Positions 57,401-60,400 of a stretch of DNA of 64,000 nt are shown here, piece by piece (the first letter of the stretch is position 1; each line of letters opens with the position of its first letter). Source of the stretch: Escherichia coli (GTDB lineage: Bacteria; Pseudomonadota; Gammaproteobacteria; Enterobacterales; Enterobacteriaceae). The stretch lies in NCBI RefSeq assembly GCF_048403405.1, contig NZ_CP183129.1; one strand, given 5' to 3'. The position numbers are program-made.

Positions 57401-60400
57401 AATTTATCAATAATCGATTTGAACAGTTTCTCTTCTTCATGCTGCTCAGAAACATACCATTGCAGGAAATTAAATGTTGGGTAGTCCTGATTGGTCATTG
57501 CAGCATGAGCCAGTTCGTTAATTTTCTGGGTGATTAATTGTTCGTGTTTATAGGTTTCCTGGAATAATTCATCAAGTGAGGAATATTCAGCAAACGGAGA
57601 TTCAACGGTATTAATACGCGGTAAATTGCCGGTATCAGTCAGATAATCAAACAGACGCTGCATATGCGTCATCTCTTCCTGGGCGTGACGGCGCAGGAAC
57701 GCGGCAGCACCTTCGAAGGTATGATAGCTGCACCAGGCGCTCATTTGCTGATAAAGCAGTGAAGAGTACAGTTCCAGGTTCATCTGCTCATTAAGTTTTT
57801 CAATCATTTCTGGTTTCAGCATGATAGTGCTCCACAAAGGTTATATTTGTTGCTGTGGCGTCACTATAATTTGTTATTTTATTATTTGCAAAAGGTAAAA
57901 TATAAACTTCATTTATTAAAAATACGAATGGGAATAAAACGCATTACCGCTATTTATTTAATCAGCGAAGATCCCCCTCGCTGATTAAAACATTTAGAGA
58001 AAGACAGGGAAGGCGGAATGATGGCACTGATATGACAAAGTGAATTCCGTATTCAAACATAAGGAACCCGCAAAGAGGCTACAGTTGCCTACTGGCTGAC
58101 CAAAGGGGATAGCGTGGGTATAGCCTTCCTGCTGGCATGCGCGATCGGCGATCCCGCGACTGACATAACGATCGGTACGGGCATGCTGCAAAAAAGCCTG
58201 ATCATAAACCAACCGAACAATACCTGTTGCCGCGTCAACTTCGCCCACATGAGCCTGGCGAGTAACTGTGCACCCCGCCAGCGTTATTAATGAAAGAGTC
58301 AGAATCAGAAGTCTCATGGTCCAGCCAGAAGAGTAAAAGAAAGCAGTATTTTACGCGTTACAGCGCTGCGACAATGGCCGGAAAAGACGCCTGGCAGGCG
58401 CTATTTCTCGCCATCTGTATGTGTCAGAAAGGGGGGGGCTGCTTTTTGATTATCATTTTTATAACATTAAAGGGGTATTTATGTGATTTGCATCACATAA
58501 AGATTGATTTTTGTGATGGTTGTCATATTATAAGCGCAAAGACAATAACACCTGTATAACAAATGGTCGGAGTGCCGCGATGAAACTGCGCAAAATCCTG
58601 AAAAGTATGTTCAACAACTATTGCAAAACGTTCAAAGACGTACCACCAGGCAATATGTTCCGATAACAAAAAACCTGCTCCGGCAGGTTTTTTTGTGTCC
58701 TGGTGACGGTGGATGTGACTATCGCTGAAGATGTGAAGCCGCTACTATAACGGCTTTCAAAATGCTATCAGGAGTTTACGATGTCCCAGCCGCTGAATGC
58801 CGATCAGGAACTGGTTTCTGATGTGGTTGCTTGCCAGTTGGTTATCAAACAAATTCTGGATGTTCTCGATGTAATCGCGCCCGTTGAAGTTCGTGAAAAA
58901 ATGTCCAGCCAGCTGAAGAATATCGACTTTACTAACCATCCCGCCGCCGCAGACCCGGTCACCATGCGGGCAATCCAAAAAGCCATCGCGCTGATTGAAC
59001 TCAAGTTTACCCCACAGGGCGAATCCCATTAAAAAAACCGCTGCTTCAAAAAGATGAGGCAGCGGTTTCTCAAAAACTTCATCGGCGCAATGCATTAGCG
59101 CCGATGTATGATCAATGCAGCTGATGCGACACGACATTCAGAACATGTTGGTCGGTCTGCACAGGGCACATACCCGCAAGTTTCGCACTGCGCACTTCAT
59201 CAAGAATGGTTTGCAGCAACAGGCCATCATGCTGCTGTTCTTTTTCCAGATCGCGCAGGAAATTGACGGTTGAATCATCATTCAGTTCTTTCGCTTCATC
59301 GGCTAACTGCGCCAGCGTGCTTGAACGTTGCTCGTATTCTTCCATCGTTTTTTGGAACAGTTCTTCCAGAGAGTTCAGTTTTTCACCGGGAACATCAATG
59401 GCTTTAACGATGGGGGTAGCGCCGACACTCTTCATAAAGTTAAACATGCGCATCATTTGGGTCACGTTACTCTGTGCCTGGGCGCGAAGGAAAGTGGCGG
59501 TGCCGTTCAGACTCTGTTCAGAACACCAGTTACTCAGGTGAAGGTAGAGATTGGATGCGTAAAACTCGCGGTTCATTTGAGAGTTGAGTTTGAGAAGCAT
59601 TCCAGCGGTTGCCATACCTAAAATCCTTATATCCAGAAGTGGAGAGGTGCAAGATAAATCAAAACACCATAATTACTGTTTGCAGAATAATTCCTTTCTG
59701 CCGGTCCGAAATGTGATCGTGGAGTCAATTCTGACGATGATCTGAAATAAGAATAACGTCTGAGCGGGTATAAGAAAATGCTTAAATCATCAAGTTTATA
59801 TATTTTTACATTTCATTGATGAAATCAATGTAACTGCAATGAATTTTAATGATAGTGATTTTTGTATCTTGTTGATATTAATCGATGAATTTGAATTCAT
59901 GATGAAGTGATGATTTTATAAAACGTTTTTTCATTTTTGCGAGATGGCTCTCATTATACGTGTTCTGTTAATTAATGAGCACAGTGATAATTAATGGCGA
60001 AATGAATGACGCGCATTTTCCACATCTTTGAGTTGTGGTTATTACACCATTTCAAAAACTCAACGCCAGGTAATGCGGCCTGTTGACTGGTTAAAAAGAA
60101 GACATCCCGCATGGGTACCAAAGACAACAAGGATTTCCAGGCTAATCTTATGGATTAATCTGCTGTGCACTAGCCAATTTGTCAGACAAATTGGCTTTTC
60201 CTTATGTCTTTTCCCGCTAAATTTATGCACGTTCTCACTGTAATTCTGCGATGTGATATTGCTCTCCTATGGAGAATTAATTTCTCGCTAAAACTATGTC
60301 AACACAGTCACTTATCTTTTAGTTAAAAGGTAATGCTTTGTTTTCCGATTAATTTAACGAATGTCATTCGTTTTTGCCCTACACAAAACGACACTAAAGC

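What the first reader, a model, noticed from the sequence alone, without database searches (positions are those of the whole stretch)
58431..58438. Eight-G homopolymer tract between yecR and azuC
A run of eight G (AAAGGGGGGGGCT) sits about 45 bp upstream of the CRP site in the azuC control region. Runs this long are uncommon in E. coli and prone to slippage, so length changes could alter promoter spacing. It may equally be a sequencing artefact.
Basis: seen in the sequence. Interest (0 to 1): 0.25.

Follow-up and report, generated by a model that had tools for sequence, protein, structure and literature searches.

The report
Variable G-run between yecR and azuC
The eight-G run is real and is one allele of a length-variable G tract in spacer DNA between two back-to-back E. 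coli promoters; it lies outside every mapped control site, so it is most likely a harmless mutational hot spot rather than a switch.

Summary
The G8 run is at window 58431-58438, as reported. It is the only G/C run of 7 or more in the 64 kb. It is not an artefact: 58 of 5,426 complete E. coli genomes carry the identical 44-mer, and 8 are identical over 3 kb.

It lies in a roughly 50-bp spacer. On one side is the FlhDC box that activates yecR (58373-58414). On the other is the NarP/PhoP/FNR/CRP cluster of the azuCR promoter (58467-58527). The run is at -104 to -111 from the azuCR start and about -90 to -97 from the inferred yecR start.

The site is the variation hot spot of the intergenic region. 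Alleles run from interrupted G2-G4 through G5, G6 (K-12 type, 2,415 genomes), G7 and G8 up to G14. Two sister Escherichia species have no run.

The window's G8 gives the same 263-bp intergenic length as K-12. It therefore differs by substitutions at the run's edge, not by slippage, and it is stably inherited. A sublineage that includes IAI1 carries G8-G13 on near-identical 3-kb backgrounds, so the tract is truly hypermutable once it is long.

Natural length differences of about 9 bp suggest spacing across the tract is unconstrained. Verdict: an ordinary polymorphic mononucleotide repeat. Interest is low.

The parts
58431..58438 (+). G8 homopolymer run (C8 on the yecR-sense strand), the allele carried by this strain
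   Evidence: Read directly. Only G8/C8 in the window. Identical 44-mer in 58 of 5,426 complete genomes.
58431..58446 (.). Hypervariable segment (G run plus CTGCTTTT). It holds all the length variation and most of the variable columns of the yecR-azuC intergenic region.
   Evidence: 54-sequence alignment. Allele tables. Two sister Escherichia species have an unrelated sequence with no run here.
58415..58466 (.). Spacer between the two divergent regulatory modules. No mapped site lies in it.
   Evidence: Bounded by the FlhDC box and the NarP site, mapped from K-12 coordinates. No promoter-like or terminator-like site was found at the run. No Rfam match.
58373..58414 (-). FlhDC box of the yecR class-2 promoter. 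Proximal arm AATGGCCGGAAAAGACG at 58373-58389; distal arm, read on the - strand, ATGGCGAGAAATAGCG at 58414-58399.
   Evidence: Published consensus AAYGSSNNAAATAGCG-N10-12-CGCTATTTNNSSCRTT (PMC9962212). The distal arm matches with 2 mismatches. The FlhD/FlhC ChIP-seq peak centre upstream of yecR maps to about 58376-58379 (PMC4183435; the coordinate shift is my arithmetic). The core is conserved in E. whittamii.
58348..58353 (-). Putative yecR -10 hexamer TAAAAT. The inferred transcription start is near 58341.
   Evidence: Inference from the sequence and the usual position of FlhDC boxes upstream of class-2 starts. Not verified by start-site data.
57994..58317 (-). yecR, an FlhDC-activated lipoprotein that decorates the flagellar L ring
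   Evidence: ORF. RefSeq annotation of identical or near-identical loci. About 300-fold FlhDC dependence (PMC4183435). Seen in the basal-body cryo-EM structure (bioRxiv 10.1101/2020.12.05.413195).
58467..58504 (+). NarP, PhoP and FNR repressor sites of the azuCR (isrB) promoter, overlapping CRP site 1
   Evidence: K-12 coordinates 1988039-1988076 (PMC12266141), mapped onto the window through the start site at 1988001 = 58542. MG1655 shows no indels in this stretch.
58482..58497 (+). CRP-type site 1, TGTGATTTGCATCACA, centred at -52.5
   Evidence: Read. CRP repression of azuC and predicted CRP sites are reported in PMC8915982. Both half sites are invariant in 54 sequences; only the spacer varies.
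58512..58527 (+). CRP-type site 2, TGTGATGGTTGTCATA, centred at -22.5 and overlapping the core promoter
   Evidence: Read. Consistent with repression by CRP (PMC8915982).
58504..58534 (+). azuCR core promoter: -35 TTGATT at 58504-58509; -10 either TATTAT at 58526-58531 or TATAAG at 58529-58534
   Evidence: Consensus scan. Position relative to the published start site.
58542..58705 (+). AzuCR (IsrB) dual-function RNA, 164 nt; start site at 58542
   Evidence: PMC8915982: the azuC coding sequence occupies nt 40-126 of the RNA. That places the start 39 nt before the ATG at 58581.
58581..58667 (+). azuC coding sequence (28 aa)
   Evidence: Contained in the ORF listed. Annotated as WP_010723106.1 in every genome inspected.

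Best explanation
The G8 run is one allele of a polymorphic mononucleotide repeat. It lies in functionally unconstrained spacer DNA between two divergent and independently regulated promoters: FlhDC-dependent yecR on one side and CRP/FNR/NarP/PhoP-repressed azuCR on the other.

The tract is a mutational hot spot of the ordinary replication-slippage kind. Two processes act on it. Single-base gain or loss occurs at a rate that rises steeply with run length. Substitutions at the run's borders lengthen, merge or interrupt the run.

In this strain's lineage the run reached G8 through border substitutions. The segment length is the same as in the TA-G6, T-G7 and TT-G6 alleles. The G8 allele is inherited stably. 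It does not change the spacing of any known promoter element and most likely has no regulatory role.

Shown here: presence of the run, allele spectrum and counts, position relative to published sites, stability on identical haplotypes, and absence from two sister species. Inferred: neutrality, the substitution route to G8, and the yecR start site.
For: Position:
- The AzuCR start is at 58542.
- The mapped FNR, PhoP and NarP sites span -38 to -75.
- The CRP-type sites are centred at -52.5 and -22.5.
- The run is at -104 to -111.
- The FlhDC ChIP peak and box lie at 58373-58414, and the run starts 16 bp beyond the box.

Variation is concentrated here:
- In a 54-sequence alignment, 16 of the 28 variable columns fall in 58431-58446. 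All length variation falls there too.

Allele counts in 5,426 complete genomes:
- TA-G6 (K-12 type): 2,415.
- G7: 125.
- G8: 58.
- G9: 0.
- T-G7: 120.
- TT-G7: 122.

Interrupted runs (TT-GGAGGG, T-GGGGTAG, TA-GGGGAG) are common. There is therefore no sign of selection to keep a run.

The window and K-12 both have a 263-bp intergenic region.

Stability of G8:
- Eight genomes are 100% identical over 3,008 bp, all with G8.
- G8 is also present in a haplotype that is 0.5% diverged.
- The G7 genomes are 1% diverged.

The length effect behaves as slippage predicts. In the IAI1 sublineage G8 to G13 occur on 3-kb backgrounds that are at least 99.8% identical, several with no other difference. Published work states that indel rate is an exponential function of run length (PMC8510543).

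E. whittamii and Escherichia sp. E1V33 keep the FlhDC core, both CRP-type sites and the -35/-10 region. At this position they have an unrelated sequence without a G run.

YecR and AzuC are intact in strains of every tract length inspected.

There is no significant fold (z = -0.5 and +0.1), no terminator-like site at the run and no Rfam match.
Against: No expression data were available, so neutrality is inferred from position and from tolerated variation, not measured.

The yecR transcription start is inferred, not mapped.

Protein-occupancy data cited for the azuCR promoter emphasise -30 to -90. They do not prove that -104 to -111 is empty.

The persistence of a G-rich tract at one spot in nearly all E. 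coli, and its expansion to G9-G14 in one sublineage, could also reflect selection for mutability.

Some public length calls are assembly errors (SCU-306, M10). Allele counts therefore carry some noise.
Confidence: 0.8

Rival explanations
1. The tract is a contingency or tuning element. Slippage changes the helical phasing or distance between the two halves of the intergenic region. For example, it could shift upstream DNA or azuCR-side factors relative to FlhDC and RNA polymerase at yecR, or shift FlhDC relative to azuCR. This would give heritable, reversible changes in yecR or azuCR expression.
For: Length is polymorphic in several flanking backgrounds: TA-G5/G6, T-G6/G7, TT-G6/G7/G8, and G7/G8/G10.

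In the IAI1 sublineage, length changes outpace SNPs in 3 kb of flank.

YecR is an outer-membrane lipoprotein on the flagellar L ring. That is the class of product often under phase variation.

A homopolymer upstream of a core promoter can tune output, as at H. pylori sabA (PMC4081817).
Against: The run is outside every mapped site of both promoters. It is not next to a -35 element; it lies at -104 to -111 and about -90 to -97.

Interrupted alleles that abolish slippage are frequent. The TT-GGAGGG class accounts for about 5 of 60 evenly spaced ranks, roughly 400 genomes.

The majority allele is only G6.

G8 is invariant among 8 identical 3-kb haplotypes.

Sister species have no run.

From my own knowledge, the phase variation known in E. 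coli works by DNA inversion and Dam methylation, not by simple sequence repeats. The review read lists the inversion and methylation cases for E. coli.
Confidence: 0.08
2. The G8 is a sequencing or assembly error in the source genome, with the true length being G7 or G6.
For: Homopolymers are error-prone in long-read assemblies. Clear examples exist at this very site: SCU-306 has G4 together with a frameshifted yecR, and M10 shows a G14...G17 duplication.
Against: The exact 44-mer with G8 is in 58 independent complete genomes. Eight genomes from different laboratories and hosts are identical over 3,008 bp. The G8 allele keeps the standard 263-bp intergenic length. A G8 in a different flanking background also occurs in an assembled metagenome contig, L015.
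Confidence: 0.03
3. The run is part of a discrete functional element that has not been mapped. Candidates are a transcription-factor site built on the flanking imperfect inverted repeat TCAGAAA / TTTTTGA, a structured RNA, a terminator, or a small ORF that crosses the run.
For: An imperfect 7-bp inverted repeat flanks the run and forms the minimum-free-energy hairpin on the + strand. ORFs of 89 aa (58290-58559) and 21 aa (58421-58486) cross it.
Against: The fold energy is no better than shuffles (z = -0.5). No terminator-like site lies at the run and there is no Rfam match.

The distance between the two repeat arms varies by about 9 bp among strains, and the right arm is lost in sister species.

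Length changes that are not multiples of three would frameshift any ORF crossing the run.
Confidence: 0.04

Closest known systems
Polymorphic mononucleotide simple-sequence repeats in non-coding E. coli DNA (described by Gur-Arie et al. 2000 and used for strain typing by Diamant et al. 2004; cited from memory, the papers were not retrievable here)
   Same: A mononucleotide run in an intergenic region whose length differs between natural isolates. It has no demonstrated function, and its variation partly tracks lineage.
   Different: I could not check whether this particular locus was in those studies. Here border substitutions that extend, merge or interrupt the run are as prominent as slippage. 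One sublineage has expanded to G9-G14.
8-G:C runs in the leuP, leuQ, leuV and leuT tRNA genes of E. coli K-12, which are indel hot spots in mismatch-repair-deficient lines (PMC8510543)
   Same: The same run type and length in the same species. This shows that G8 is at the upper tail of E. coli run lengths and is slippage-prone.
   Different: Those runs lie inside functional RNA genes and are conserved by selection. This one lies in spacer DNA and drifts freely.
Rheostat-type promoter homopolymers, e.g. the T tract adjacent to the -35 element of H. pylori sabA (PMC4081817)
   Same: An intergenic homopolymer upstream of a promoter with strain-to-strain length variation.
   Different: The sabA tract abuts the -35 element and separates it from UP-like elements contacted by RNA polymerase. 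The G run here is about 70 bp upstream of the azuCR -35 and beyond the activator box of yecR, so no element pair is known to straddle it. H. pylori lacks MutSL-type mismatch repair (my knowledge), whereas E. coli has it.
Classical promoter-spacer phase variation by poly-G/poly-C tracts, such as the Bordetella fim genes (the B. pertussis homopolymeric-tract paper PMC1891110 appeared in the search but was not read) and Neisseria porA/opc (from memory)
   Same: A G/C homopolymer of 8 or more that changes length by slipped-strand mispairing.
   Different: In those systems the tract lies between -35 and -10, or between an activator site and -35, and length sets ON/OFF states. That positional criterion was tested here and is not met.

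Membership tests
Neutral polymorphic intergenic mononucleotide repeat (SSR) | Uninterrupted mononucleotide run in non-coding DNA that is long relative to the genome's run-length distribution | tested here: met
   G8 at 58431-58438 lies between yecR and azuC. G/C runs of 6 or more are about 5-fold depleted in the window, and this is the only run of 7 or more.
Neutral polymorphic intergenic mononucleotide repeat (SSR) | Length polymorphism among strains of the species | tested here: met
   Uninterrupted runs of G4-G14 were observed, plus a G17 in one probable misassembly. Exact counts for six alleles were obtained in 5,426 genomes.
Neutral polymorphic intergenic mononucleotide repeat (SSR) | No overlap with functional sites; sequence not conserved in related species | tested here: met
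   The run is outside the FlhDC box, the CRP/FNR/PhoP/NarP sites and both core promoters. E. whittamii and Escherichia sp. E1V33 lack the run but keep the flanking sites. The limit of this test is that only published or mapped sites could be compared.
SSR contingency locus (promoter type) | The tract lies between elements whose spacing sets promoter activity (-35/-10 spacer, activator site to -35, or -35 to UP element) | tested here: not met
   The run is at -104 to -111 from the azuCR start and about -90 to -97 from the inferred yecR start. It is distal to all mapped sites on both sides.
SSR contingency locus (promoter type) | High-frequency, reversible length change, visible as variation among very close relatives | tested here: inconclusive
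   For the G8 allele the feature is not seen: 8 of 8 identical 3-kb haplotypes carry G8. For the G8-G13 alleles of the IAI1 sublineage it is seen: several lengths occur on otherwise identical 3-kb haplotypes. Rates per generation could not be measured, and some calls may be assembly errors.
SSR contingency locus (promoter type) | Tract length changes expression of the adjacent gene | not testable with these tools
   This needs isogenic reporter fusions or RNA measurements across tract lengths.
Intrinsic terminator / structured RNA element | G+C-rich hairpin followed by a T run, or a fold more stable than shuffled controls, or a match to a curated RNA family | tested here: not met
   No terminator-like site lies at the run. 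Fold z-scores are -0.51 and +0.12. No Rfam match overlaps it at E <= 1.

The most novel reading that the evidence does not exclude
The yecR-azuC G tract is a genuine SSR-based tuning element in E. coli, a species not known for SSR phase variation. Once it exceeds about G8, as in the IAI1 sublineage with G8-G13, slippage would heritably and reversibly modulate expression of the flagellar L-ring lipoprotein YecR or the carbon-metabolism RNA AzuCR. It would do so by re-phasing upstream DNA relative to FlhDC and RNA polymerase. The window's G8 would sit at the threshold of that behaviour.
Probability: 0.06. Interest if true: 0.55.

Novelty: new member of a known kind. Interest (0 to 1): 0.2.

Why it matters
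For genome annotation, this settles a flagged oddity. The run is real, inherited and almost certainly inconsequential for azuC or yecR control, so it needs no special annotation.

Two practical points follow. First, the site is a useful example of how homopolymers evolve in a repair-proficient bacterium. Border substitutions build or break the run, and length instability appears only once the run is long. Second, the tract is a trap for assembly errors and a possible fine-scale typing marker within the IAI1-like sublineage.

If length did affect yecR or azuCR expression, it would be a rare case of repeat-mediated tuning in E. coli. The positional evidence makes that unlikely.

Tried and rejected
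Sequencing artefact. Rejected because the identical allele is in 58 complete genomes and 8 genomes are identical over 3 kb.

Terminator or structured RNA at the run. Rejected.

Coding ORFs across the run (89 aa and 21 aa). Rejected because natural length changes are not multiples of three.

Transcription-factor site on the flanking inverted repeat TCAGAAA/TTTTTGA. Rejected because the arm spacing varies by about 9 bp and the right arm is absent in sister species.

G-quadruplex. Not pursued, because a single G8 plus a GGGG 35 nt away does not give four spaced G runs.

Cross-species scan with a degenerate azuC pattern. It returned only two loci, E. whittamii and Escherichia sp. E1V33. No E. coli, E. 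albertii or E. fergusonii representative was returned, so the outgroup sample is thin.

Retrieval of Lee et al. 2012 (PNAS) and Gur-Arie et al. 2000. Both failed. Per-generation slippage rates and the earlier SSR surveys are therefore cited from memory only.

The 'FlhDC box' that the gSELEX paper lists for yecR. It maps to the inverted repeat downstream of yecR, not under the ChIP-seq peak. I did not use it.

A full allele census was not possible. The similarity search returns counts by identity band and at most 60 rows. About 2,400 genomes are therefore classified only approximately, from evenly spaced rank samples.
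Full report
OBSERVATION

The window reads ...GTGTCAGAAAGGGGGGGGCTGCTTTTTGATT..., with eight G at 58431-58438. 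It is the only G8/C8 in the 64 kb and the only G/C run of 7 or more.

Dinucleotide-preserving shuffles give about one such run per window: mean 0.97, with 46 of 100 shuffles having at least one. Against that null the run is not remarkable.

The real sequence, however, avoids long G/C runs. GGGGGG occurs 4 times against 19.2 +/- 5.8 expected, and three of the four are inside this run. G/C run counts fall 148, 39, 1, 0, 1 for lengths 4 to 8. The run is therefore an outlier for this genome. This fits the published remark that the 8-G:C runs in four leucine tRNA genes are outliers and indel hot spots in K-12 (PMC8510543).

CONTEXT

The genes are:
- ftnA (-)
- yecR (-, 57994-58317)
- azuC (+, 58581-58667)
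- yecJ (+)
- ftnB (-)

These come and from RefSeq annotation of matching loci. The window is E. coli but not K-12. The 263-bp yecR-azuC intergenic region is 96.6% identical to MG1655 and 100% identical to strain CFSAN018748.

WHERE THE RUN SITS RELATIVE TO KNOWN CONTROL ELEMENTS

The AzuCR RNA is 164 nt, with azuC at nt 40-126 and its start at K-12 position 1988001 (PMC8915982). That places the start at window 58542.

CRP represses azuC. Two CRP-type sites are readable:
- TGTGATTTGCATCACA at 58482-58497, centred at -52.5.
- TGTGATGGTTGTCATA at 58512-58527, centred at -22.5.

The consensus scan finds -35 TTGATT and -10 TATTAT at 58504-58531.

A 2025 study mapped and mutated FNR (1988039-58), PhoP (1988046-63) and NarP (1988060-76) repressor sites. 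It reported raised protein occupancy about 30-90 bp upstream of the start (PMC12266141). In window coordinates these sites span 58467-58504, so the furthest reaches about -75. The G run is at -104 to -111.

On the other side, yecR is one of the strongest direct FlhDC targets, with expression 653 versus 1-2 in flhD/flhC mutants. Its ChIP-seq peak centre is at 1986188 in NC_000913.2 (PMC4183435). After the version shift (my arithmetic, +1976 to +1979) this maps to about 58376-58379.

The published FlhDC consensus is AAYGSSNNAAATAGCG-N10-12-CGCTATTTNNSSCRTT (PMC9962212). It matches at 58399-58414 on the - strand with two mismatches. The partner arm, AATGGCCGGAAAAGACG, is at 58373-58389 and was read directly.

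A TAAAAT hexamer at 58353-58348 (- strand) fits a start near 58341. This is inferred, not mapped.

On the yecR-sense strand, the run as C8 therefore begins 16 bp beyond the distal edge of the FlhDC box, at about -90 to -97. In short, the run lies in the middle of a roughly 50-bp stretch (58415-58466) that separates two regulatory modules and carries no mapped site.

VARIATION ACROSS E. COLI

A first alignment of nine strains showed that this spot is where the intergenic region varies.

A gapped-pattern scan of metagenome contigs returned 30 independent loci. Their alleles were:
- TA-G6-CTGT, the K-12 type: 19.
- T-GGGGTAG: 4.
- T-G10-T: 2.
- Singles of TT-G6 (with one extra T), TT-G8, T-G6, TA-GGGGAG and a K-12-type allele with one T fewer.

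Representatives of the identity and length classes in the complete-genome collection added TT-G6 (+T), TT-GGAGGG, TA-G5/G6-CTGTTC (O157:H7), T-G7, G7, TT-G7 and T-G6.

I counted exact alleles with 43-45-nt queries. For these, the 99%-or-higher identity band can only hold full-length exact matches; coverage was checked in each output. Counts in 5,426 genomes were:
- K-12 allele: 2,415.
- G7: 125.
- G8, the window allele: 58 (59 minus one partial hit).
- G9: 0.
- G10 in the same flank: 2 assemblies.
- T-G7: 120.
- TT-G7: 122.

About 168 genomes do not align to any CTGC-containing query. This is the approximate size of a sublineage in which CTGCTTT has been replaced.

That sublineage reads AAAT-Gn-T(T)GATT. 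The verified lengths are:
- G10: IAI1 and 11 others with the exact sequence.
- G9: strains 600468 and NCTC8623.
- G8: STEC313.
- G11: D1 and 2017.15.01CC.
- G12: 94-3024.
- G13: 120899 and PM4-5.
- An odd G14...G17 in M10.

In a 54-sequence alignment, 16 of the 28 variable columns and all length variation fall within 58431-58446. That sample was chosen by class, so it is not a random sample.

HOW G8 AROSE AND HOW STABLE IT IS

The segment between the anchors GTGTCAGAAA and TGATTATC is 16 nt in the window (G8-CTGCTTTT). It is also 16 nt in the TA-G6, T-G7, TT-G6 and T-GGGGTAG alleles. The whole intergenic region is 263 bp in both the window and MG1655.

G8 therefore differs from the common alleles by substitutions at the 5' edge of the run (T or A to G), not by a change in length. 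The same pattern recurs elsewhere:
- G7-CTG becomes G10 by C>G and T>G.
- G10-TTG becomes G13 by two T>G changes, in at least 14 genomes.

This fits misalignment-type mutagenesis at run borders. That last link is an inference from general knowledge.

For stability I searched 3,008 bp around the run. Eight genomes from different hosts and laboratories are 100% identical, all with the same span. G8 is also present in CFSAN018748, whose 3-kb haplotype is 99.5% identical to the window. The G7 genomes are only 99.0% identical. So G8 is inherited by descent, and no G7 or G9 variant was seen on an identical background.

The same test with the IAI1 haplotype gave a different result. On one baseline haplotype (bit score 5537) there are spans of 3001, 3002, 3000, 2999 and 2998 bp. 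Their scores are explained by the indel alone. The fetched examples confirm that the differences lie in the G run and the adjacent T.

Long alleles therefore change faster than SNPs accumulate in 3 kb of flank, while G8 in the window's lineage does not. This is the behaviour expected if slippage rises steeply with run length (PMC8510543). Some of the length calls will be assembly errors:
- SCU-306 has G4, a shortened neighbouring G4 and a frameshifted yecR.
- M10 looks misassembled.

On the other side, IAI1, two Illumina metagenome contigs (G10) and duplicate assemblies of single strains agree with each other.

OUTGROUPS

A degenerate azuC pattern found only two other species representatives, E. 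whittamii and Escherichia sp. E1V33. Both keep the FlhDC core (GAAAAGACG...GCGCTATT), both CRP-type sites and the -35/-10 region. Where E. coli has ...TCAGAAA-[G run]-CTG(C/T)TTTTTGATTATC, they have TTCAGAACGCACACATCTTATGGTTATC, with no G run. The segment is therefore the least conserved part of the region, and the run is specific to E. coli among the genomes retrieved.

INTERPRETATION

Four observations point the same way:
- The tract lies outside all mapped elements.
- The segment length differs by about 9 bp between natural alleles, from 7 shorter to 2 longer than the window. That is nearly a full helical turn.
- Interrupted alleles are frequent.
- The flanking genes are intact in every strain examined. 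AzuC is WP_010723106.1 throughout, and YecR is WP_001237869.1 in K-12 and in nearly all strains of the long-G sublineage inspected.

Together these argue that nothing depends on the spacing or sequence here. The best explanation is a neutral mutational hot spot (confidence 0.8).

Its 'could alter promoter spacing' does not fit the geometry, and 'sequencing artefact' is excluded for this allele.

The main rival is a tuning or contingency function. It cannot be excluded without expression data, and the hypermutable long alleles lend it some support. But it fails the positional criterion that defines such loci, as seen in the sabA T tract abutting -35 (PMC4081817).

Other readings found no support:
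- Terminator.
- Rfam RNA family.
- Stable fold.
- ORFs crossing the run (weighed against the length polymorphism).

COMPARISON AND NOVELTY

The closest known category is the polymorphic intergenic mononucleotide repeat of E. coli. This comes from my memory of Gur-Arie 2000 and Diamant 2004, which I could not retrieve. The run meets the defining features tested: a long run in non-coding DNA, strain polymorphism, and no overlap with functional sites.

It does not meet the key positional feature of promoter-type contingency loci.

It is a new member of a known kind. I found no prior description of this specific locus in the searches made, but those searches were not exhaustive.

VERDICT

Interest is 0.2. 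The one point worth keeping is that the same site carries a truly unstable G8-G13 tract in the sublineage that includes IAI1. That makes a cheap test of the tuning hypothesis possible.

Noticed in passing
L049-L054, L058, L059 (equivalent to window 58431-58446): A sublineage of roughly 160 complete genomes, including IAI1, has replaced G7-CTGCTTT by a pure G run. Lengths of G8 to G13 occur on 3-kb haplotypes that are at least 99.8% identical, so length changes outpace flanking SNPs.
   Followed up: yes
L046 (strain SCU-306) and L055 (strain M10): SCU-306 has TT-G4 at the tract, GGG instead of GGGG 35 nt downstream, and a yecR annotated as frameshifted. M10 has G14...G17 with 15 extra bases between them. 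Both look like homopolymer assembly errors, a caution for any census of tract lengths.
   Followed up: partly
window 58487-58492: The 6-bp spacer of the CRP/FNR-type site upstream of azuC is polymorphic (58489 T/C, 58490 G/A, 58491 C/T), while both TGTGA/TCACA half sites are invariant in 54 sequences.
   Followed up: no
window ~57960-57990: The sequence that the gSELEX paper (PMC9962212) lists as the FlhDC box for yecR corresponds to the inverted repeat downstream of yecR, between yecR and ftnA. It is not the consensus-matching box under the ChIP-seq peak at 58373-58414.
   Followed up: partly
window 58388-58400: The inverted repeat CGCCTGGCAGGCG sits in the spacer between the two arms of the FlhDC box. 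The consensus scan flags it as terminator-like, which is probably incidental.
   Followed up: no
H312 (strain 50EVA) and H341 (strain Z1323HEC0108), 3-kb ftnB-yecH stretch: These two genomes carry an IS1 and an IS5 insertion, respectively, within the 3-kb region around yecR-azuC.
   Followed up: no
L006 versus L041 (O157:H7 strains ECP19-598 and 2159): Two O157:H7 genomes differ at the tract (TA-G5 versus TA-G6) on the same CTGTTCTT background. This is either recent slippage within a clonal serotype or an assembly error.
   Followed up: no
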